From: an uncultured virus (IMG/VR IMGVR_UViG_3300035670_000104)
Taxonomy: Duplodnaviria; Heunggongvirae; Uroviricota; Caudoviricetes
Length of the DNA: 30,643 nt
Virus record (IMG/VR): IMGVR_UViG_3300035670_000104
Strand: one strand, 5' to 3'
The first letter of the stretch is position 1, and every line of letters begins with the position of its first letter. A program made the translations under genes and the position numbers. Under the pieces are notes generated by a model, which ran no database searches, was not told where the DNA came from, and saw only the letters and a program-made list of their open reading frames with translations. Below, piece by piece: positions 3,425 to 28,285 of this stretch.

Positions 3425-3805
3425 TTAAACTACTCCAATTGTTTGTACTTCCGAAAACGTATCTCCAGAGGTTGTTCTAATTTTCATTCTTACTTCGTAG
3501 GTTCTATCAATACTTTGTGTAGAGGTGAATTCAAGAATGTCTGCTACACCAGGAACTTCCAAAATCTTTTGTTGTAGAATACGATCTACTACTTCCTTTT
3601 TGACTTTAAAGCCGAGGATTCTGGACAGATATGGAACACCTGTGGATTCATTCAAATACCACTCTGTTTCAAATGTTCGCAGCATAACAAACACTCTTTG
3701 AGCGACAGCATCTACAAATTCTGAGGTTATCGGAGTTAACCCATTTACAAAGATCATGTCCCCATATCCAGAAGTATCTTTAACTCTATTAACTAGCAAA
3801 TCCAT
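3425..3805 (-). CDS. Baseplate wedge / sheath-initiator protein (gp25-like)
   Basis: 126 aa, AVAQRV..LRTFETEWYLN..GVPY motif; sits between the spike and baseplate J genes. Confidence 0.72.
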   Translation of the reverse strand: MDLLVNRVKDTSGYGDMIFVNGLTPITSEFVDAVAQRVFVMLRTFETEWYLNESTGVPYLSRILGFKVKKEVVDRILQQKILEVPGVADILEFTSTQSIDRTYEVRMKIRTTSGDTFSEVQTIGVV

Positions 3806-3813
3806 AATACTCC

Positions 3814-4620
3814 TTAAGCTACTGGATTAGAAACTCTATTACCATCACCCTGTTCAATGTGTCCGTGCGATTCCACTGCGATGCCGTTGAGGATAAAACT
3901 TCCATTCATGTTATACGTACCTGTACTTACGGCACTACCTGTTGCATTCAACGAATAATTTGTTGTACCAACAGAATAACTCGTAGAGGATACTGTATAG
4001 GTTGAACAATTCACTCTGTAATCTTGTGTGTTAACTGTCATACTATCTGAAGCATTTACTTCTGCGTCTTTACAGTTAATCGTAGCACTTCCACTTTTTG
4101 CATTAATAACAATGTCTCCACTTTGTTTCAAAACAATTTCAACAGGGTTGGAGCCTTTTCTGTTATAAACTACTGTATCTCCTACAGCGTAATCACTACC
4201 TTGCTTTGTCTCTCGTGCCATAGACAGTGACGAAGGGAAAATACATGGAATAGCAATGCAGTCTTTTCTATCAAACTTTCTAAAGTCTGTGGGGCCAGTA
4301 GGACTCCCAGAGCCATATTTCCATGTGTCGATGCCTTTTTGAGAGAAAACCAGTAATACAGTGTCGCCCACATTCACAGGAAAGATCATCCCCGCAACAG
4401 AGGAGGCAGGCTGTTGCATTGGGACATTGAGGATTGAACTTTGTGCAATAATTTCTCCATCACGAGTTAGGATAGAGATGGCAGGCTGTACATCGAGCAT
4501 TAGGTTTCTACCACTCTCTTTTACAGCAAGGACAACTGCTGGGATTGCTGTGTTTACAGTGTCTAGTTTGTAATCAATAAATTGGGTGATTAACTCTCCC
4601 AGTCCAATCTCTTCTTCCAT
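3814..4620 (-). CDS. Baseplate central spike (Gp138/gpV-like)
   Basis: N-terminal OB-fold-type segment (PVNVGDTVLLVFSQ), S/T-rich beta-helix repeats, and a C-terminal HxH metal-binding tip (ESHGHIEQGDG). Confidence 0.82.
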   Translation of the reverse strand: MEEEIGLGELITQFIDYKLDTVNTAIPAVVLAVKESGRNLMLDVQPAISILTRDGEIIAQSSILNVPMQQPASSVAGMIFPVNVGDTVLLVFSQKGIDTWKYGSGSPTGPTDFRKFDRKDCIAIPCIFPSSLSMARETKQGSDYAVGDTVVYNRKGSNPVEIVLKQSGDIVINAKSGSATINCKDAEVNASDSMTVNTQDYRVNCSTYTVSSTSYSVGTTNYSLNATGSAVSTGTYNMNGSFILNGIAVESHGHIEQGDGNRVSNPVA

Positions 4621-20057: not shown

Positions 20058-22547
20058 TTAGAGAGAAACAACTTTAGGTTCTCCAATTGCTTGTTGAAAA
20101 TTTTGAATACTTCCGAGGAAGTTTGGTAGAATCTGTTTAGATGCTAGGTAAGCGAAACAATCCGAAACGCAGTCAACAAGATCATCGTGTCCTGTCTCAC
20201 CTCTTCTTCTTTGCCCATCGAAGGCTTCAAGCTCCCTATAGAAGAAGTTGTTATCTCCTCGAATATTATTATCTAAATCGTGAGCACAATTCTTTAAGAA
20301 CTTTATTCCGCCGTTTTGAGCCATTGAGGAGGCTGGTCTAAATCTGTCAAGTTTCGACGTTGAAGCCCTCATTTTCTGTGCATACAACCCTGATTCCGCT
20401 AAATCTCTGATTAACAGAGTACATGCTGCCGCTGCCGCTGGGTTAGGGTCGCTTGGAATAAGAATATCCACATTTCTATGGAGTTCTTTATCTTCCATAG
20501 CATTGTCTATGATAAACTTCTGCCATTCCCCGAATCTTATTCTAGTCCTCTTAGCGTCCAAGATAAGATAATCTCCATTCCGCATCTTTGCCATCTTAAC
20601 AGTTGCCGTATAATCGGGGCTTGGATTGCTATCACTTTTTAAAGTTCCGGCAAAGTCATATGCTCTAACTATCTTAACAATCTGTGATTCATCATAACTA
20701 GACAACTCTTCACACCAACTTCTTTGAAAGAATGATGAGCTTTCGGGTCTTGCTTCCCAATTCCCAAACAACAGAATCTCTCGCTCTACACGAGGCAGTC
20801 CGTTTAGAAATGCAATGTAAGAAGGTTGAATGTATGGATTATCATATACCGAGGCACTAATGAATCTGAAAGAGAGAGGAATATCGTTAGGATATTTTTC
20901 TTCCAACTCCTCTTTAGTATCCGCCCAAATAAGTCCATCACTTGTTCTTATGAACCACCGGATGACTCCTTGTTTAGAAGGATCAGGTCTTCCATGATTT
21001 TCATGACCTTCTGGAAACAAATACCAGTCCACGTACTGTCTGACCCAGCTATCGGGATCGGGGTTCATAGTTGCCCGCATATTGGGCTTCATGTTAGCTT
21101 TTGTACGTAAACGAGACAGAATATAGTTAAACTGACTCTCTTCAAACTGACACAATTCCTCCATTACGCAGGAAGAAATTTGAGCACCTTGGAAGTTTCG
21201 AGTATCTTCTACTCTCTCAAAGTGGGAAAACGCCACTTCAGCACCACTACTAAACTGGTACTTTAAATCTTTAATCTTAATCCTACCACCGGGATCAATA
21301 TCGGTGTAGATTGTTTTACTTTCGTCCCACACAGCCCCTGATTTAAGTAACATAGGAGTTGTTCTACGCAATGTAAGCCCACGATATAGAGGGTCGTGAG
21401 TATATTTCAAGTGGTGCATAAGACCTGCAAAAGTGTTGTGGGTTACTACAAAATCGGTAGTAACAAACAATCTATCTCCTGTTACAGAAATGCATGTAGC
21501 TTCACCTTTACCTGCACACTCAATACTCTCAATTCGATTCCCAACATCTTTTTTAACTGTACGAGATTTTTTACGAGGTAGTCTGAATAGTTCTGTTTGA
21601 TTTTTACCACGAATATAGAGTACGTAGGCATCCTTACATACTACCTTTTCACCATCCTTATTGTAGAACGTTTTCTTGAAAGTTGTGGTTACTGTAAACC
21701 CAAGACTTCTGAGAATTTCGGTAACATCAGAGGCTAAAGAATTACTTACTGTACAGAAATATGTTTTACCGTCTTTTGAGACATATCCGTCTGAGTCCAT
21801 TAGACCTTGGATAAGGGAAAACCTATCTTCAATACTTGCTGTAAAATAATCTTGTGGAATAAATTTATCATGACTCTTTTTCATATATAAGTCATATCCG
21901 ATAACCGAATCTTTTACTCCGTCAACTCTATAGGAAATCCCTCCAGAGCTTTCCCACACAACAGTAGCATACCCATCATCGTTAACACTCTGAATAATCT
22001 CCTGATCTGTAGTTGTCAGAGATATGCAATCTCCTCGGAAACAACCATCTCCAAGCAAAAGACCCATAGTGTACGGTTTGATCTTCAGTGCTACCTTTTC
22101 ACCAAATTCCAAAGGTTCTGATAACTGCACAATCGGTAAATATTTTCTACCTGATTTCAAGTTTTGTCTGTCAATATATTCTTTAATCTCGATAGTAGTT
22201 TGAACAAGTTTCTTACCATCCTGACCAGCTTTATGAAACTTCCAAAGATGCTGTCCACAGCATTTTACTTTTCTACCGTCTTGGAAAATAACTTCATAAA
22301 TATCGACTTCGCCTTGTGGGAATACCCCTGTGATATACTGGACAGAGTTATCTGGTGCCACAATTTCTTGACCAATCTCACAACTTTCGATATTGACAAA
22401 CCCCCTTGGAGTCAACACCTTCTCACCATGGAGGAGTGCTTTTCCGCCACCTGCTTGTCCACCGTAGAAACAAATATCTACCCAATCTGGAGTTGTAAGA
22501 AACATCTCCTGTGGTTTGGAGGCTGGTGCGTATACTTTACGACTCAT
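20058..22547 (-). CDS. terL: Terminase large subunit, intein-containing precursor (829 aa; about 494 aa mature)
   Basis: Walker A GQAGGGK|T split by the intein; Walker B-like CVMEEL; coupling motif ATMNP; nuclease motifs RAYDFA and HDDLVD. Confidence 0.95.
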   Translation of the reverse strand: MSRKVYAPASKPQEMFLTTPDWVDICFYGGQAGGGKALLHGEKVLTPRGFVNIESCEIGQEIVAPDNSVQYITGVFPQGEVDIYEVIFQDGRKVKCCGQHLWKFHKAGQDGKKLVQTTIEIKEYIDRQNLKSGRKYLPIVQLSEPLEFGEKVALKIKPYTMGLLLGDGCFRGDCISLTTTDQEIIQSVNDDGYATVVWESSGGISYRVDGVKDSVIGYDLYMKKSHDKFIPQDYFTASIEDRFSLIQGLMDSDGYVSKDGKTYFCTVSNSLASDVTEILRSLGFTVTTTFKKTFYNKDGEKVVCKDAYVLYIRGKNQTELFRLPRKKSRTVKKDVGNRIESIECAGKGEATCISVTGDRLFVTTDFVVTHNTFAGLMHHLKYTHDPLYRGLTLRRTTPMLLKSGAVWDESKTIYTDIDPGGRIKIKDLKYQFSSGAEVAFSHFERVEDTRNFQGAQISSCVMEELCQFEESQFNYILSRLRTKANMKPNMRATMNPDPDSWVRQYVDWYLFPEGHENHGRPDPSKQGVIRWFIRTSDGLIWADTKEELEEKYPNDIPLSFRFISASVYDNPYIQPSYIAFLNGLPRVEREILLFGNWEARPESSSFFQRSWCEELSSYDESQIVKIVRAYDFAGTLKSDSNPSPDYTATVKMAKMRNGDYLILDAKRTRIRFGEWQKFIIDNAMEDKELHRNVDILIPSDPNPAAAAACTLLIRDLAESGLYAQKMRASTSKLDRFRPASSMAQNGGIKFLKNCAHDLDNNIRGDNNFFYRELEAFDGQRRRGETGHDDLVDCVSDCFAYLASKQILPNFLGSIQNFQQAIGEPKVVSL
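21435..22439 (-). mobile_element. Class 3 intein with LAGLIDADG homing endonuclease (335 aa)
   Basis: Begins with Ala (ALLHGEKVLTP), ends VVTHN|T. WCT signature: HLW (block B), ATCISV (block F), THN (block G). LAGLIDADG motifs GLLLGDG and GLMDSDG. Confidence 0.92.
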
Positions 22548-24531: not shown

Positions 24532-24774
24532 TCATTCCTCAAAATCTAGCGTCACTTCTAGCACTTCAGCAACCTGAACAAATTCCGACTTCTTTGGAGT
24601 GTCAACTCCGTAAAAGAATTTGTCCACTTTGTTTCTATTCCAACCAAGCTCTAGGGCCAAGTCGCTAGTTGACATTCCTCTATTACGGAGAACACTAATG
24701 AAATCGGAAATAGCTGCTTCAGCGTCTAGAGGATCAACAAGCTCTGCTCGCTTTTCTTCTATATTCTTATTCAT
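24532..24774 (-). CDS. XRE-family helix-turn-helix protein (80 aa)
   Basis: LRNRGMSTSDLALELGWNRNKVDKFFYG..P......VAEVLEV; start ATG 24774 (SD AGGA). The longer ORF overlaps the tRNA. Confidence 0.72.
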   Translation of the reverse strand: MNKNIEEKRAELVDPLDAEAAISDFISVLRNRGMSTSDLALELGWNRNKVDKFFYGVDTPKKSEFVQVAEVLEVTLDFEE

Positions 24775-24825
24775 GTTATTTCCTATTGTAATAATCCCTA
24801 TGAGGGAATGCTCTTTGCATTGCAC

Positions 24826-24859
24826 AAAGAAAATGGGAGAGAATAAAACAAGCTCTCCC
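24826..24859 (-). terminator. Terminator downstream of tRNA-Gly
   Basis: GGGAGAG-N11-CTCTCCC followed by ATTTTCTTT. Confidence 0.65.
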
Positions 24860-24872
24860 TCTTGTATAAATA

Positions 24873-24948
24873 TGGAGCAGACGATCGGAATTGAACCGAC
24901 AACCACTGATGTGGAAAAACAGCGCTCTGCCAATTGAGCTACATCTGC
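24873..24948 (-). tRNA. tRNA-Gly(TCC)
   Basis: 76-nt cloverleaf: acceptor GCAGATG/CGTCTGC, anticodon loop TTTCCAC, T-loop TTCAATT, U73 discriminator, encoded CCA. Confidence 0.92.
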
Positions 24949-25158
24949 AATAAAACAGGAGTTTTGCACATTAACCAATACCGAAATATTGAAGTGTCTC
25001 CTGTGTGTTAAATATGCCCCGTAAATAGCCGCAAAGAACTACTCTGCCGAGGACTTTAGCTTACGTCTAAGCCTTCTTTCTTAAATATTAAAGTTCAACC
25101 CCTGTCCAAAACAACAATTGAAGTTTATACAGGTGTAGAGGCGACATCAGAAAGAACA

Positions 25159-25446
25159 TCACCGAATACTCTCATAAGGGAGAATTGACTCTCCTCGATA
25201 ATACAGAAATGCACAGTAGTTAGCAACATCCACTACATTTCCCTTTTCTACACTAATATGAAGAAGATTGCTTAGATGTTGTTGGGTACATTCCTCCGTA
25301 TTAAATCCTGAGTACCCTTGCTTACTCTTCTGGACTAGCCGAATCTTTTGCACCTGACTAAGATTGTCTACTGCATCCTTTTCAATCTCAGCTTCTACAA
25401 TTTTCTCAGGTTCCCAAGCTTCTCGTTGTGCATCATAATGTCCCAT
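25159..25446 (-). CDS. Hypothetical phage protein (95 aa; KG..VDVANY motif)
   Basis: Start ATG 25446 with SD AGGAG, overlapping the end of the upstream gene. Confidence 0.7.
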   Translation of the reverse strand: MGHYDAQREAWEPEKIVEAEIEKDAVDNLSQVQKIRLVQKSKQGYSGFNTEECTQQHLSNLLHISVEKGNVVDVANYCAFLYYRGESILPYESIR

Positions 25447-25624
25447 TATACAACTCCTTAGCAAAACCATCTACAATTGCTGTGTAGCCATACTTCTTCT
25501 TAGCATCGGCGTAGCTATCGGCCTTACCAATTTCCTTCATTGTAACTTCGTATTGTGCCTCACCTTTGTGGTCAACACCTGCCTTACGATAGGTCGGCAT
25601 ATATACGGCGATTTGCTTCTTCAT
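25433..25624 (-). CDS. Hypothetical protein (63 aa)
   Basis: Strong SD AAAGGAG and ATG start. Confidence 0.7.
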   Translation of the reverse strand: MKKQIAVYMPTYRKAGVDHKGEAQYEVTMKEIGKADSYADAKKKYGYTAIVDGFAKELYNGTL

Positions 25625-25684
25625 TTACTTTCTCCTTTGTTAATAATCAAACTTCTTTTTCAGATAAACTTAAATTGAATTGAA

Positions 25685-25864
25685 TGGGATAGGTGGATTC
25701 GACACCACAACATCCTATTAGCCCGGTACTGTTTTCATTGACACAATTGCCGTACTCGCGTAATACAACTAATAAGTTTGCATTAGTTTTAGACAAGACA
25801 TCTTATCATGCTTTGGAGATTAATGCATCTCTCCTAACAATACTTTCAATCTTTCTACTATCCC
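25685..25864 (-). ncRNA. Putative mini-tmRNA-like / tRNA-like RNA (element A, 180 nt)
   Basis: Acceptor-like stem GGGATAG/CTATCCC plus A; stemless D-loop; long P2 (AGTATTGTTAG/CTAATAGGATGTT); H-type pseudoknot GGAGA/TCTCC plus ATGC/GCAT; T-arm GTGG-TGTCGAAT-CCAC; 35 nt downstream of tRNA-Arg. Confidence 0.6.
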
Positions 25865-25899
25865 AAACAGAAGAACTCTCGGTAAAGAATGCTTTTGTT

Positions 25900-25976
25900 T
25901 GGTGGGCGGCGAGGAATTCGAATCCCCATAGTTCGAGGTAGAAGCTCGATTCATTGTCCAGTTATGATAGCCGCCC
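25900..25976 (-). tRNA. tRNA-Arg(TCT)
   Basis: 77-nt cloverleaf: acceptor GGGCGGC/GCCGCCC, anticodon arm TCGAG-CTTCTAC-CTCGA, T-loop TTCGAAT, 3' ACCA. Confidence 0.93.
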
Positions 25977-25981
25977 AAAAC

Positions 25982-26056
25982 TGGTATGGCGTGTTGGTTT
26001 CGATCCAACTACCAAAGTCTTATGAGGACTCCACTCTCCCATTGAGTTAACGCCAC
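25982..26056 (-). tRNA. tRNA with CAT anticodon (Met or Ile2)
   Basis: 75-nt cloverleaf: acceptor GTGGCGT/ACGCCAT, anticodon arm GAGTC-CTCATAA-GACTT, T-loop ATCGAAA, 3' ACCA. Confidence 0.9.
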
Positions 26057-26060
26057 TTCC

Positions 26061-26141
26061 TAAATGGAAGACTCTACCACAGAACTTAGGAGAAAGGAGA
26101 ATGAAAACCTAGTTCTCTTTGTGTGTAAAGCCTTCTATTTA
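26061..26141 (-). ncRNA. Putative hairpin sRNA with an anti-Shine-Dalgarno loop
   Basis: Stems TAAATAGAAG/CTTCCATTTA, GCTTTAC/GTAGAGT and AGAACT-AGG/CCT-AAGTTCT; apical loop TTTTCATTCTCCTTTCT. Confidence 0.5.
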
Positions 26142-26161
26142 AGAGACTCTTTCGAGTCTCT
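26142..26161. terminator. Perfect 8-bp hairpin (GAAA tetraloop on minus strand); terminator or processing site
   Basis: AGAGACTC-GAAA-GAGTCTCT. Confidence 0.55.
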
Positions 26162-26166
26162 GTATT

Positions 26167-26259
26167 TTATAGTCGAATTGGATTCAGGTCAATTCCGAGC
26201 CCGTACCCTTCAATCAAACCCCATCCCTCGTTTGTAATACTATCCCAACCGTCATTCAT
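26167..26259 (-). CDS. Small peptide (30 aa)
   Basis: MNDGWDSITNEGWGLIEGYGLGIDLNPIRL; SD AAAGGA; first ORF after a consensus promoter. Confidence 0.5.
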   Translation of the reverse strand: MNDGWDSITNEGWGLIEGYGLGIDLNPIRL

Positions 26260-26293
26260 AAGAATTCCTTTGTTTTTGTTGTCTATACTTACA

Positions 26294-26322
26294 ATTATAT
26301 CATCCACTTCTATATTTGTCAA
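26294..26322 (-). promoter_or_regulatory. Consensus sigma70 promoter for the tRNA/ncRNA cluster
   Basis: TTGACA-17 nt-TATAAT with extended -10 TG. Confidence 0.9.
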
Positions 26323-26371
26323 GTGTTTTATTACAGTTTGGTACAATTATTTACCTAAATGTACTTACTTA

Positions 26372-26857
26372 TCAATCCCAGAATGTATTCAGATATAGTC
26401 CAAACAAACGACACCCATTTTGAATACGAGCATGGTAGGCATCGTATAGAGCACGCTTATCTGGAATTTCTTTAAGACCGGAAGAAATCATTGTAACACA
26501 ACCACGCTCGTCTGGCTCACTCCATTCAATTTCACCAACAACATCGTAAGGCTGAGGCTCATTTGCATTGTCTGTGGCAATCTCATTCATTGCCCACACA
26601 ACCTCATCCAACACCCAATCCCACGCATCTTTAGAAAATCTTTCTTGATAAGTACCATGAAGTTCTTCTGGAACATCTTCCTTTGCAATAGCTCCGTATC
26701 CGTGAGAAGTCTCCTTCAGTTGCTTTAGGAGTGGTCCTGCAATCTGAGCAATAGTCCAAGCACAGCTCCAACTATCTTCCTTGTCAATCACAACATTGTT
26801 TGTCTTTACAGAGCCTTTCTCCTTACCACTCTTATAACGTTTAATCTTTACTTCCAT
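26372..26857 (-). CDS. Hypothetical phage protein (161 aa)
   Basis: SD GGAG; WDWVLDEVVWA and RIQNGCRLFGLY..FWD segments resemble a common large-phage family. Confidence 0.8.
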   Translation of the reverse strand: MEVKIKRYKSGKEKGSVKTNNVVIDKEDSWSCAWTIAQIAGPLLKQLKETSHGYGAIAKEDVPEELHGTYQERFSKDAWDWVLDEVVWAMNEIATDNANEPQPYDVVGEIEWSEPDERGCVTMISSGLKEIPDKRALYDAYHARIQNGCRLFGLYLNTFWD

Positions 26858-26872
26858 CTATAGACTCCATCC

Positions 26873-27052
26873 TTACGAAACTGTCACTTCATTTGTGCAT
26901 ACCGGGCAAACAATATATCTCCAAGTATCCCTGCCGCCATCAATATCAACTGTGTTTTGTTCTTTCACATCGGTGAATACGTAACTTAGCTTACTTCCGC
27001 ACTTTCTGCAAGATACTTCTCGTTCTGTCTGAGGACTTACAACTTTAACCAT
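26873..27052 (-). CDS. Zinc-ribbon protein (59 aa)
   Basis: MVKVVSPQTEREVSCRKCGSKL...YIVCPVCTNEVTVS; two CxxC motifs; SD AAGGAG. Confidence 0.75.
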   Translation of the reverse strand: MVKVVSPQTEREVSCRKCGSKLSYVFTDVKEQNTVDIDGGRDTWRYIVCPVCTNEVTVS

Positions 27053-27221
27053 TCTTCATCTCCTTCTTTGGTTTAAATTTCTCAATGACTTCCATTAGCT
27101 TTCTGTGTGCAACGTCTTGCTCAAGGAGACATCCACCACAAATAAGCCAATAACCTGTGAACTGACCACCTTCTTCTATAAGGTTTTCTGTAGCACCACA
27201 ATGCACACAACATTGTTCCAT
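27045..27221 (-). CDS. Small Cys-rich protein (58 aa)
   Basis: MEQCCVHCGA...ICGGCLL...; SD AAGGA; tightly coupled to both neighbours. Confidence 0.68.
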   Translation of the reverse strand: MEQCCVHCGATENLIEEGGQFTGYWLICGGCLLEQDVAHRKLMEVIEKFKPKKEMKNG

Positions 27222-27224
27222 TAT

Positions 27225-27590
27225 TTATTCCTTTCGGTAATTAAATCCATACTCTGTCCAATGCTCACCATCTACAACATCAGAAAATTTCTTAATCAGT
27301 TCTACACGCCACTCTGGTACGTTAGATGGAACACTCTTAATTCCCATTATCCAAGGAGTGTTTCGTTCTTCTTCAGCCTCTTCCTTAGCTCCCCAGTAGT
27401 GTTGATGTGAAACAACAACCGTCATCCCGTGGCAAGTTTGAGTCTCTAAGTCCGTTCCAGGGTACTTTACATGCCACAAGAGTACAATATCCCCTGTGTG
27501 CAGTTCTTTTTCTTCTCCCCAACGGCCATTCAGTGTAACTGGAGTCCCAACATCACACAAGCAACATTCTCCACTATAAACACGTAACAT
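27225..27590 (-). CDS. Hypothetical protein (121 aa)
   Basis: Strong SD AGGAGG. Confidence 0.78.
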   Translation of the reverse strand: MLRVYSGECCLCDVGTPVTLNGRWGEEKELHTGDIVLLWHVKYPGTDLETQTCHGMTVVVSHQHYWGAKEEAEEERNTPWIMGIKSVPSNVPEWRVELIKKFSDVVDGEHWTEYGFNYRKE

Positions 27591-27618
27591 ATTTCCTCCT
27601 TTGTTTGAACATGACTGT

Positions 27619-27648
27619 AGTGTAGCACAGATTTCTAGAACACAACAA
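27619..27648 (-). promoter_or_regulatory. Possible sigma70 promoter
   Basis: TTGTTG-18 nt-TACACT with extended -10 TG. Confidence 0.45.
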
Positions 27649-27664
27649 AGTCACTAAGTATTAG

Positions 27665-27895
27665 TCAAGAATTATACACAAGAACACCATTGCTATCTGT
27701 TTTGAATCCGTGTGAAGCCAACTCCTCTTCCCACAAGGACTTCCACTTGGTAAGCTCTTTCATAGCCTGTATGTGGCTTTCTCTTTGCGATCTTGTGATG
27801 TATGTGATGTACCTATACCACTTCAACTTCTTGAAAGAGTTTGAACTTACTCTAAGTTTTTGTACAAATAGCTCATCTTCTTTAGATACATTCAT
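27665..27895 (-). CDS. Hypothetical protein (76 aa)
   Basis: Start ATG 27895 (MNVSKED) with SD AAAGGAG; the upstream extension lies in a long hairpin. Confidence 0.68.
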   Translation of the reverse strand: MNVSKEDELFVQKLRVSSNSFKKLKWYRYITYITRSQRESHIQAMKELTKWKSLWEEELASHGFKTDSNGVLVYNS

Positions 27896-27929
27896 ATCTA
27901 CTCCTTTATATTTAATATAACTATATCTC

Positions 27930-28285
27930 TTATCCCTTGGTGAATCTTTTGAAGATACAGTTCGCCCTACTCTCATCAGCATTACCTGTATGAAAGCAGA
28001 ACCTGTAATCAAAAGAGTCACCAAGAGCTTATCCCCCGGAGCCACATGTTGTCAAGCTTTAGGCTTGATGTGTACATTTCTAGTTGTAGGTACACAGACA
28101 CAGTTGAGAATTTCTTGTCAGGTCTTCTCAAACACAATAGAGTAGGCTACAATCCTGTCTACTGCACATACTTACCTCAGTCCCTCCGCGTCTTGGACGT
28201 AGAACTTACACCGACTGTCTAGTACCTGTTGTTAAGAGATACACTACCGAAGTGTAAGAGCTATGAATGCTTTTACACATTCAAT
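27930..28285 (-). ncRNA. Putative long structured leader / ncRNA
   Basis: Follows the promoter at 28292-28320; multiple stems plus a ~95-nt rod whose G-U pairs work on the minus strand. Confidence 0.5.

What the first reader, a model, noticed from the sequence alone, without database searches (positions are those of the whole stretch)
25685..25864. 180-nt mini-tmRNA-like RNA inside the tRNA cluster
Seen in sequence (minus strand): a perfect 7-bp acceptor-like stem with an A discriminator, an unpaired D-loop, a long P2 helix in place of the anticodon arm, an H-type pseudoknot straight after P2, further hairpins (GATAAG/CTTGTC, AACTAAT/ATTAGTT) and a T-arm-like hairpin. Established: this order is the topology of tmRNA. 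Differences: it is about half the usual length, has G3:C70 instead of the alanine identity G3:U70, has an 8-nt T-loop and no encoded CCA. The tag-like GCA AAC frame has no stop before the T-arm. Inference: an undescribed phage tRNA-mimic RNA, for example a decoy for SmpB, the ribosome or anticodon nucleases, processed from the tRNA transcript.
Basis: partly seen in the sequence, partly recalled or inferred. Interest (0 to 1): 0.85.

Follow-up and report, generated by a model that had tools for sequence, protein, structure and literature searches.

The report
Anticodon-less tRNA-shaped phage RNA gene
A 180-base stretch at the end of a phage's row of tRNA genes keeps a tRNA's paired ends and one arm but has no decoding arm; it resembles phage T4's long-unexplained small RNAs rather than a tmRNA, and could be a working tRNA look-alike or a recently wrecked tRNA gene.

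Summary
The sequence features are real. On the minus strand, 25864..25685 has a perfect 7-bp closing stem (GGGATAG/CTATCCC), an A discriminator and an adjacent T-arm-like hairpin (4 bp, 8-nt loop). It lies 35 nt after tRNA-Met and tRNA-Arg(UCU), downstream of a consensus sigma-70 promoter.

The tmRNA reading fails every testable criterion:
- no ARAGORN or Rfam tmRNA hit, even at relaxed thresholds
- G3-C70 instead of G3-U70
- no encoded CCA
- no stop codon in the tag-like frame within the RNA

It is not a detectable tRNA either, and the relaxed ARAGORN "tRNA with intron" call is at noise level.

In the closest fetched relative (L052), the same slot holds a 91-nt atypical class-II tRNA-Tyr(GUA). 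Homology breaks within 1 nt of the element's 5' end. Sequencing-run contigs indicate at least three alleles of this slot.

The closest known analogues are T4 RNAC and RNAD, which also follow tRNA-Arg. A covariance model of RNAC does not match the element, so it is the same kind but not the same family.

The interior folds no better than shuffled sequence, and no diverged homologue could be read, so covariation is untested. Functional non-decoding tRNA-like RNA: about 0.45. Relic: about 0.35. Interest is moderate.

The parts
25685..25864 (-). 180-nt tRNA-framed, anticodon-less element (position p of the RNA = window 25865-p)
   Evidence: Sequence; fold. An identical copy is in the nearest IMG/VR record. 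Run X8's 43.8-kb contig spans it within a piece that is about 95% alike overall.
25858..25864 (-). acceptor-like stem, 5' strand GGGATAG (RNA 1-7)
   Evidence: Perfect 7-bp complement of 25686-25692. Pair probabilities are 0.97-1.0 in the isolated 180-mer.
25685..25692 (-). acceptor-like stem, 3' strand CTATCCC (RNA 173-179) plus discriminator A (RNA 180); followed by TTC, no CCA
25693..25708 (-). T-arm-like hairpin GTGG[TGTCGAAT]CCAC (RNA 157-172): 4-bp stem, 8-nt loop that reads like a T-loop with one extra G
   Evidence: pair probability 0.66. The same 16-mer occurs in 24 other IMG/VR stretches in unrelated contexts.
25790..25857 (-). long arm (RNA 8-75): outer helix 8-16/66-75 enclosing hairpin 26-56. 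It competes with a local hairpin 58-73 (GATAAG/CTTGTC).
   Evidence: MFE; pair probability about 0.8 for the outer helix against 0.12 for hairpin 58-73; z -1.85, 19 of 500 shuffles as good.
25767..25788 (-). hairpin AACTAAT(G)...(T)ATTAGTT (RNA 77-98)
   Evidence: z -4.5, 4 of 500 shuffles as good; pair probability only 0.3-0.45 in the full-length ensemble.
25716..25765 (-). weakly structured segment (RNA 100-149)
   Evidence: z -0.19, 201 of 500 shuffles as good.
25863..25902 (-). 40-nt spacer hairpin that pairs the CCA end of tRNA-Arg with the first two G of the element
   Evidence: -13.7 kcal/mol, z -4.7, 0 of 200 shuffles as good. It is conserved in L052:3848-3887 (-15.6 kcal/mol, z -5.0, 0 of 200).
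25900..25976 (-). tRNA-Arg(UCU), CCA encoded
   Evidence: ARAGORN. It did not reach the Rfam gathering score.
25982..26056 (-). tRNA-Met(CAU), CCA encoded
   Evidence: ARAGORN; Rfam tRNA 54.1 bits.
26294..26322 (-). sigma-70 consensus promoter TTGACA-17-TATAAT with an extended TG, upstream of the tRNA/element/ORF run
   Evidence: 12 of 12 hexamer matches. The same hexamers and spacing are read by eye in L052 at about 3542-3570. The scan found no terminator-like site on the minus strand between the promoter and the ORFs.
25433..25624 (-). first downstream ORF (63 aa, no family), with its RBS and ATG 60 nt after the element
   Evidence: It is conserved in L052, L053 and L054.

Best explanation
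The stretch is a tRNA-framed, non-decoding RNA gene. It keeps the acceptor-stem/T-arm half of a tRNA, while the D and anticodon half is replaced by about 150 nt of mostly weakly structured sequence.

It occupies a swappable slot at the distal end of the phage's tRNA array. In the closest fetched relative the same slot holds an atypical class-II tRNA-Tyr(GUA).

Inferred mechanism:
1. It is transcribed from the consensus promoter at 26322-26294 as part of one tRNA-Met / tRNA-Arg / element / ORF transcript.
2. The acceptor/T-arm minihelix is the part that RNase P and the 3'-end/CCA machinery recognise. It therefore directs a cut 5' of G25864, followed by 3' trimming near A25685 and possibly CCA addition.
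3. This releases a roughly 180-nt RNA that cannot decode, and also separates the tRNAs from the downstream mRNA.

Shown: the sequence features, the position, the slot equivalence, and the failure of the tmRNA, tRNA, intron and RNAC tests. Inferred: transcription, processing, stability and any trans function.
For: - Perfect 7-bp closing stem plus an adjacent T-loop-like hairpin, on the tRNA strand, 35 nt after tRNA-Arg.
- Perfect promoter upstream, and no terminator-like site found on that strand.
- L052 (flanks 82-90% identical in DNA) carries a 91-nt tRNA-Tyr(GUA)-like gene with CCA in the same slot. ARAGORN calls it at -ps90. Random 30.6-kb sequences give 0.25 calls on average at that setting, with 10 of 40 having one. 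The Rfam tRNA score is 19.8 bits, E 0.086, below the gathering score of 29.
- Alignment with L052 breaks at window 25863 and resumes at 25658. A run-X5 contig diverges at the same base, and its 30 unlike letters read, reverse-complemented, like L052's Tyr-like 5' end.
- Both alleles have perfect 7-bp acceptor stems that differ on both strands at three pair positions (GGGATAG/CTATCCC against GGATAAG/CTTATCC), and their T-stems differ on both strands too. So the stems are kept by selection, or the two are distinct genes each with an intact stem. Simple neutral decay of an L052-like ancestor would instead break pairs.
- The element is kept in run X8's 43.8-kb contig. The piece covering 25610-26857 has 52 other letters and 18 gaps.
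- Precedent of the same kind: in T4, tRNA-Arg is followed on the same strand by RNAD (119 nt) and RNAC (139 nt). RNAC has a closing stem, a long arm, a hairpin and a T-arm, and 19 of 46 pairs show compensatory changes across 5 genera.
Against: - The interior 8-156 folds no better than shuffles (z -0.88, 99 of 500 as good), whereas T4 RNAC has z -4.57 with 0 of 200.
- The T-arm is degenerate (4 bp, 8-nt loop). There is no D stem and no GG in the D-like region.
- No CCA is encoded, although the three real tRNAs here and L052's Tyr-like gene all encode it.
- No tRNA-model hit even at E<=10.
- No diverged homologue could be read, so there is no covariation test. The element is absent from 14 relatives' loci (12 at 62-66% and 2 at about 40% terminase identity) and from 5 searched records, of which 4 are complete relative genomes. 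It is replaced by other sequence in L052, X5 and X7.
- The strong conserved spacer hairpin takes G1 and G2. In a 436-nt precursor fold the acceptor stem is not in the MFE structure, though that prediction is unreliable (ensemble frequency about 0).
- There are no expression data.
Confidence: 0.45

Rival explanations
1. Relic: a recently disrupted or decaying tRNA gene (for example a class-II tRNA) whose anticodon and D region was overwritten by an insertion or illegitimate recombination. It has no function of its own and survives only because the event is recent.
For: - Weak interior folding.
- Degenerate T-arm, no D stem, and loss of the CCA that every neighbouring tRNA encodes.
- Undetectable by the Rfam tRNA model at E<=10.
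- Confined to one narrow lineage, namely the window, its near-identical IMG/VR record and run X8.
- The slot is dispensable and variable: Tyr-like gene in L052 and X5, about 140 unlike letters in X7, and X5 joints 25643/25646 to 26061 across the whole tRNA block.
Against: - The acceptor stem is still perfect and differs from L052's by double-sided changes. The 5' 31 nt are only 14 of 31 identical to L052's gene, against 8-13 of 31 for 18 unrelated tRNAs, while the flanks are 82-90% identical. So this is not simple in-place decay of the L052-type gene.
- The inserted sequence has no other copy in the window or in any fetched locus.
Confidence: 0.35
2. Mini-tmRNA or SmpB decoy: a shortened tmRNA-like RNA that engages SmpB or the ribosome.
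For: Only topology: a closing acceptor stem, a T-arm at the 3' end, a reduced D region and a long arm where the anticodon arm would be.
Against: - No tmRNA call by ARAGORN at default or -ps80.
- No Rfam tmRNA-clan hit at gathering score or at E<=10.
- G3-C70 in place of G3-U70, no CCA, 8-nt T-loop.
- The tag-like frame has no stop inside the RNA.
- The pseudoknot is unsupported.
Confidence: 0.03
3. Intron-containing tRNA: tRNA-Arg(CCG) with a 105-nt intron at position 32/33, as ARAGORN draws it at -ps85.
For: ARAGORN -i0,200 -ps85 gives this call at 25865..25684, with a 5-bp stem GTTAG/CTAAT.
Against: - At those settings ARAGORN makes 19 calls in the window, of which 3 are real, and 9 to 25 calls in each of 20 randomised windows.
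- The drawn anticodon loop lacks U33, the D stem is nearly unpaired, and the intron position is non-canonical.
- The stem has about zero pair probability.
- No group I intron model matches at E<=10.
- From general knowledge, 105 nt is too short for a self-splicing group I intron.
Confidence: 0.03
4. Purely cis-acting leader structure of the downstream 63-aa ORF mRNA, or a chance inverted repeat beside a T-loop-like hairpin.
For: The composite motif arises by chance in 29 of 200 randomised windows. The element lies 60 nt upstream of an RBS and ATG.
Against: Its place in the tRNA slot and the allele boundary within 1 nt of its 5' end are not expected by chance. The ORF and its conserved leader work behind a different allele in L052, and behind neither allele in L053 and L054.
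Confidence: 0.1

Closest known systems
Bacteriophage T4 RNAC (species 1 RNA, 139 nt) and RNAD (species 2 RNA, 119 nt), stable RNAs at the distal end of the T4 tRNA cluster
   Same: - Same strand, and directly after tRNA-Arg at the tail of a phage tRNA array.
- RNAC has a closing acceptor-like stem, a long arm, a second hairpin and a 3' T-arm, as this element does in outline.
- No anticodon arm.
- Function unknown (passages of PMC3014915 and PMC9697503).
   Different: - No sequence or structure homology. The RNAC covariance model scores T4 at 161.3 bits but finds nothing on the element; its best hit in the region is the true tRNA-Arg at 9.7 bits.
- RNAC has a canonical 5-bp, 7-nt T-arm and strong folding (z -4.57), and occurs in 748 phage records.
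- This element has a degenerate T-arm, a perfect rather than UU-mismatched acceptor stem, one more internal segment, weak interior folding, and only one known lineage.
tmRNA (SsrA) tRNA-like domain
   Same: Acceptor stem closed by the 5' and 3' ends, a T-arm next to the 3' strand, a reduced D region, and a long helix where the anticodon arm would be.
   Different: G3-C70, no CCA, 8-nt T-loop, no stop in the tag frame, about half the usual size, and no match to any tmRNA model.
Atypical class-II tRNA-Tyr(GUA) in the same slot of the relative (L052:3886-3976)
   Same: Same slot between the conserved spacer hairpin and the conserved ORF leader. Both have a 7-bp perfect acceptor stem, an A discriminator, a T-loop beginning TG, and a D region without GG.
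   Different: The L052 gene is 91 nt. It has a 5-bp anticodon stem with loop CTGTAAA, a variable arm, a 5-bp, 7-nt T-arm and an encoded CCA. The element has none of these. Descent of one from the other is not shown: 14 of 31 identity at the 5' end against a background of 8-13 of 31.
tRNA-like 't-elements' / tRNA punctuation in organelle transcripts
   Same: tRNA-like structures that serve as RNase P / RNase Z cutting signals next to mRNAs. This is the processing role inferred here.
   Different: A different system (plant mitochondria). I saw only the title and the start of the abstract of PMC1920247 in a search listing. Nothing was tested here.

Membership tests
tmRNA (Rfam tmRNA clan; ARAGORN tmRNA) | Recognised by tmRNA covariance models or ARAGORN | tested here: not met
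   ARAGORN at default finds 3 tRNAs and no tmRNA. ARAGORN -m -ps80 on the 701-nt region finds 0 genes. Rfam gives no hit at gathering score or at E<=10 (4 matches, none a tmRNA or tRNA).
tmRNA | G3-U70 wobble pair (alanine identity) in the acceptor stem | tested here: not met
   The third pair is G-C.
tmRNA | Tag reading frame that ends at an in-frame stop inside the RNA | tested here: not met
   The frame from GCA at 25781 has its first stop after 44 codons. The RNA ends after about 32 codons.
tmRNA | Canonical T-arm and a 3' CCA end | tested here: not met
   4-bp stem, 8-nt loop; A is followed by TTC. CCA could be added after transcription, which cannot be tested here.
tmRNA | Pseudoknots flanking the mRNA-like region; SmpB binding | not testable with these tools
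   No diverged homologue is available for covariation. The only lead is a 7-nt complementarity (38-44 with 80-86) read from the sequence.
tRNA (Rfam RF00005) | Match to the tRNA covariance model or ARAGORN default | tested here: not met
tRNA | 7-bp acceptor stem plus discriminator | tested here: met
   pair probability 0.97-1.0.
tRNA | 5-bp anticodon stem with a 7-nt loop carrying U33; D stem with G18 G19 | tested here: not met
   No such arm in any fold. The only cloverleaf drawn, by ARAGORN at -ps85, has A at position 33 and a nearly unpaired D stem.
Intron-containing tRNA | Call above noise; a recognisable self-splicing intron core | tested here: not met
   19 calls in the window and 9 to 25 in each of 20 randomised windows at the same settings. 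No intron family matches at E<=10.
T4 RNAC family | Position: distal end of a phage tRNA cluster, same strand, after tRNA-Arg | tested here: met
T4 RNAC family | Sequence and structure match to a model built from 5 Tevenvirinae genera | tested here: not met
   Model R1. No hit at E<=10 in the window, L052, L053 or L054; positive control T4 scores 161.3 bits. With filters off on 25550-26000 the best hit is tRNA-Arg at 9.7 bits, and the element gives only a 0.5-bit fragment.
T4 RNAC family | Helices kept by compensatory changes among relatives; stable discrete transcript | not testable with these tools
   Only an identical copy could be read. X8's differences inside the element were not listed. 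No usable RNA data.

The most novel reading that the evidence does not exclude
The 180-nt RNA is a stable, RNase P-processed and CCA-tailed tRNA mimic that cannot decode. It would be one allele of a fast-turning 'tRNA-like slot' (Tyr-like tRNA, 180-nt mimic, a third allele, or empty), and the turnover would reflect an arms race with a host factor that acts on tRNAs, for example a tRNA-cleaving defence nuclease. The mimic would titrate or divert that factor through its acceptor/T-arm half.
Probability: 0.12. Interest if true: 0.75.

Novelty: new variant of a known kind. Interest (0 to 1): 0.4.

Why it matters
Phage tRNA clusters carry tRNA-shaped RNAs that cannot decode. The T4 examples are still described as being of unknown function (passages of PMC3014915 and PMC9697503). 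This element adds a non-homologous example in an unrelated myovirus of about 88 kb. It also gives a natural comparison: close relatives carry a decoding-type tRNA-Tyr-like gene, or other sequence, in exactly the same slot. If the RNA proves stable and processed, that allelic series offers a direct way to ask what such mimics do, by swapping alleles and testing against host tRNA-targeting systems. If it is a relic, it documents how tRNA-array slots turn over. In either case it is not a new kind of tmRNA.

Tried and rejected
- Homologue hunts that found nothing beyond the window's own record:
  - blastn of 351 nt against 50,697 phage records.
  - Exact 22-mer and 20-mer scans of IMG/VR, 1 stretch each, both the window's own record.
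  - A 16-mer T-arm scan, 25 stretches, of which 24 lie in unrelated contexts.
  - blastn and nhmmer on the 14 terminase-relative loci, and on all loci fetched by then plus the window itself.
  - blastn on 5 relatives' records, 4 of them complete genomes; best E 0.02, matches of 14-29 nt.
  - Protein-anchored scans with the 161-aa neighbour in IMG/VR (own record only) and in genome contigs (none), and with the 63-aa ORF in IMG/VR (own record plus 2 spurious short matches).
- The metagenome scan gave 3 loci. None has the element.
- RNA evidence: run X6, labelled RNA-Seq (a guess according to the tool), has contigs over 24800-25612 and none over the element. Contigs cannot show absence, so this says nothing.
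- X8's base differences inside the element were among the 162 unlisted rows, so I could make no conservation or covariation statement.
- The ARAGORN intron call is rejected as noise.
- The plus-strand ORF 25693-25941 (82 aa) has no Pfam family and overlaps tRNA-Arg. I treat it as spurious.
- Direct descent from the L052 tRNA-Tyr-like gene is not demonstrable. In one search my L052 coordinates were off by one; one search corrects this.
- Literature: four searches found no description of anticodon-less tRNA-like RNAs of this sort other than T4 RNAC and RNAD. AcrIIIA1 (PMC11662646, passages) concerns host tRNA and tmRNA fragments and is not relevant.
- Earlier notes of this scan: searches by place and by sequence returned nothing.

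Full report
**1. What is there**

On the minus strand, 25864..25685 reads GGGATAG ... CTATCCC-A. The two 7-mers are perfectly complementary. The third pair is G-C, the discriminator is A, and the next bases are TTC, so no CCA is encoded.

Directly before the 3' strand lies GTGG[TGTCGAAT]CCAC. This is a 4-bp stem with an 8-nt loop that reads like a T-loop with one extra G.

The element starts 35 nt after tRNA-Arg(UCU) (25976..25900), which itself follows tRNA-Met (26056..25982). It ends 60 nt before the RBS and ATG of a 63-aa ORF. A third tRNA, Gly(UCC), lies further down at 24948..24873. All three real tRNAs encode CCA.

A perfect TTGACA-17-TATAAT promoter with an extended TG sits at 26322-26294 on the same strand. 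The scan found no terminator-like site on that strand before the ORFs. The promoter count in the region as a whole is not enriched (6 found, 4.7 +/- 2.3 expected), but this one site is a 12 of 12 match. Co-transcription is therefore inferred, not shown.

The window is part of an uncultivated myovirus. It encodes a terminase, portal, major head protein, sheath, tape measure and baseplate protein. Complete relatives are 85-91 kb.

**2. Is it more than chance?**

The composite of a perfect 7-bp stem spanning 60-300 nt, with its 3' strand abutting a 4-5-bp hairpin whose 7-8-nt loop contains TCRA, occurs once in the window, and that occurrence is the element. It appears on average 0.16 times per first-order-randomised window (29 of 200 had at least one).

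In 165,967 bases of other loci it occurs 5 times. Two of these are true tRNAs, and three are not (two of the three are the same sequence in L009 and L010). So the motif alone is weak evidence. What makes it convincing is the place described in section 4.

**3. Folding**

- The 180-mer has an MFE of -45.2 kcal/mol, z -2.15, with 3 of 200 shuffles as good. My own shuffles gave z -2.27 with 12 of 500.
- In the ensemble of the isolated RNA the acceptor stem has probability 0.97-1.0, the T hairpin 0.66, and a long helix 8-16/66-75 about 0.8.
ARAGORN's GTTAG/CTAAT "anticodon stem" costs 4.3 kcal/mol more and has about zero probability.
- The interior is not convincingly structured. Segment 8-156 has z -0.88 (99 of 500 as good), 100-149 has z -0.19 (201 of 500), and 8-75 has z -1.85 (19 of 500). 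Only hairpin 77-98 stands out, with z -4.5 (4 of 500).
- The claimed H-type pseudoknot could not be tested. I noted a 7-nt complementarity between loop 38-44 and 80-86, but it overlaps the 5' strand of hairpin 77-98.
- In a 436-nt precursor fold the acceptor stem is not part of the MFE, because a strong spacer hairpin takes G1 and G2. That prediction has an ensemble frequency near zero and is not reliable.

**4. The slot**

Relatives found through the terminase gave 15 loci in IMG/VR: 1 is the window's own record, 12 are at 62-66% identity and 2 at about 40%. The 14 relatives have neither the element nor the small flanking ORFs at 24532-28045 (only the 115-aa and 143-aa ORFs nearer the terminase, and the terminase itself, have matches).

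A metagenome scan with the upstream 161-aa protein gave three loci. L052 is 90% identical in that protein, and its flanks are 82-90% identical in DNA.

L052 has tRNA-Arg(UCU), then the same 40-nt spacer hairpin, then a 91-nt gene at 3886-3976. That gene draws as a class-II tRNA-Tyr(GUA):
- 7-bp acceptor stem GGATAAG/CTTATCC
- 3-bp D stem
- anticodon loop CTGTAAA
- variable arm
- 5-bp T stem with loop TGCGAGT
- discriminator A followed by CCA

It is sub-threshold for both detectors. ARAGORN calls it only at -ps90, a setting at which random 30.6-kb sequences give 0.25 calls on average, with 10 of 40 having one. Its Rfam tRNA score is 19.8 bits, E 0.086, against a gathering score of 29.

Homology between the window and L052 breaks at window 25863 and resumes at 25658, which is 27 nt past the element's 3' end. 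So the exchanged unit is the element plus a short trailer.

Laying contigs of four public runs on 24800-26900 gave the same picture:
- An X5 contig carries tRNA-Met and tRNA-Arg with 3 differences and diverges at 25863. Its unlike letters, reverse-complemented, read like L052's Tyr-like 5' end.
- Other X5 contigs join 25643 or 25646 to 26061. What lies between is not known.
- An X7 contig has about 140 unlike letters between 25675 and 25885.
- X8's 43.8-kb contig runs through the element. The piece covering 25610-26857 has 52 other letters and 18 gaps, including a 5-nt deletion at 25673 just outside the element.

L053 and L054 (46% protein identity) have about 100 nt of other sequence after tRNA-Arg, and ARAGORN at default calls no tRNA there.

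The slot therefore has at least three alleles, and the tRNA array differs by whole genes: Met-Arg-element here, Arg-Tyr-like in L052.

The two readable alleles both have perfect acceptor stems that differ on both strands at three positions, and T-stems that differ on both strands. The 5' 31 nt are 14 of 31 identical, against 8-13 of 31 for 18 other tRNAs. Direct descent is therefore not shown. The data fit replacement of one tRNA-type gene by another better than in-place decay.

**5. What it is not**

*Not a tmRNA.*
- ARAGORN gives no tmRNA call at default or at -ps80.
- No Rfam tmRNA hit at gathering score or at E<=10. At E<=10 there were 4 hits, all unrelated families far below their thresholds.
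- G3-C70, no CCA and an 8-nt T-loop.
- The GCA-AAC frame has its first stop after 44 codons, beyond the RNA's end.

*Not a detectable tRNA*.

*Not a credible intron-containing tRNA.* The call "tRNA-Arg(CCG) with a 105-nt intron at 32/33" appears only at -ps85. At that setting ARAGORN makes 19 calls in the window (3 real) and 9-25 in each of 20 randomised windows. No intron family matches.

*No other explanation from sequence.*
- The insert has no second copy in the window or in the fetched loci.
- The plus-strand ORF across it has no Pfam family and overlaps tRNA-Arg.

**6. Closest known**

In T4, tRNA-Arg (71173-71247) is followed on the same strand by rnaD (119 nt) and rnaC (139 nt).

RNAC folds strongly (z -4.57, 0 of 200) and is found in 748 phage records. 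An alignment of five genera gives a closing stem with a UU/UU mismatch, a long arm, a 10-bp hairpin and a canonical T-arm. Of its 46 pairs, 19 show compensatory change.

Two papers state that the roles of RNAC and RNAD are unknown. I read passages only: PMC3014915 and PMC9697503, the latter also reporting validation by Northern blot.

The element shares position and outline with RNAC but is not a member of its family. A covariance model of RNAC scores T4 at 161.3 bits and finds nothing at E<=10 in the window or in L052-L054. With filters off, its best hit in 25550-26000 is the true tRNA-Arg at 9.7 bits, and the element gives only a 0.5-bit fragment.

Earlier notes of this scan list several anticodon-less tRNA-shaped RNAs in other phages' tRNA clusters, also compared with RNAC. 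These are unchecked leads from other genomes. I did not test their claims beyond making the RNAC comparison on my own element.

**7. Best reading and rivals**

I put about 0.45 on a real, processed, non-decoding tRNA-like RNA. In this reading the acceptor/T-arm minihelix directs RNase P and the 3'-end enzymes, so the element is cut out of the tRNA-mRNA transcript and also punctuates it. That RNase P and the CCA-adding enzyme accept acceptor/T-arm minihelices, and that some T4 tRNAs lacking an encoded CCA are completed by host enzymes, is general knowledge recalled here, not tested.

I put about 0.35 on a recent relic of a tRNA-type gene. The weak interior fold, the degenerate T-arm, the lost CCA and the narrow distribution all point that way.

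The remaining probability is spread over:
- a cis-acting leader or chance (0.1)
- a mini-tmRNA (0.03)
- an intron-containing tRNA (0.03)

Any trans function (decoy for nucleases, SmpB and so on) is speculation.

**8. Verdict**

The tmRNA label is wrong. The element belongs to the known but unexplained kind of tail-of-cluster tRNA-like phage RNAs, as a non-homologous variant. Whether it functions is open, because no diverged copy could be read. The allelic slot is the most useful new fact. Interest 0.4.

Noticed in passing
window 20058-22547 (-): The large terminase is 829 aa, against about 491 aa in 12 relatives. Residues about 46-371 have no counterpart in them and carry LAGLIDADG / homing-endonuclease Pfam domains (residues 230-319). 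This is probably an intein in the terminase ATPase domain.
   Followed up: partly
window 25863-25902 (-); L052:3848-3887: A 40-nt hairpin pairs the CCA end of tRNA-Arg with the first two G of the next gene. It is very stable for its composition (z -4.7 and -5.0, 0 of 200 shuffles each) and conserved between the two phages, although the gene behind it differs. It may be a processing signal.
   Followed up: partly
L052:3886-3976: Atypical class-II tRNA-Tyr(GUA) with CCA, T-loop TGCGAGT and no GG in the D loop. ARAGORN at default misses it, and it is below the Rfam gathering score.
   Followed up: yes
window 28100-28270 (-); L052:1991-2160: A stretch of about 170 nt is 100% identical between the window and L052, while neighbouring DNA is 82-90% identical. 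ARAGORN at -ps90 draws a poor 100-nt 'tRNA-Leu(CAA)' at 28133-28232 in both, but Rfam finds no tRNA. This is an unexplained, highly conserved non-coding stretch.
   Followed up: partly
window 25900-25976 (-): ARAGORN calls tRNA-Arg(UCU), but it did not reach the Rfam tRNA gathering score in the whole-window scan. The phage's tRNAs tend to be atypical.
   Followed up: no
window 26160-26290 (-): Between the consensus promoter and tRNA-Met there is a leader of about 230 nt. It holds a short ATG-started frame from 26258 and a GC-rich hairpin (26142-26161) without a U tail on this strand. L052 shares the hairpin.
   Followed up: no
window 25982-26056 versus L052:3775-3850: The array differs by a whole gene: the window has tRNA-Met before tRNA-Arg, and L052 has tRNA-Arg only. 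Some X5 contigs join 25643/25646 to 26061, across the whole tRNA block.
   Followed up: partly
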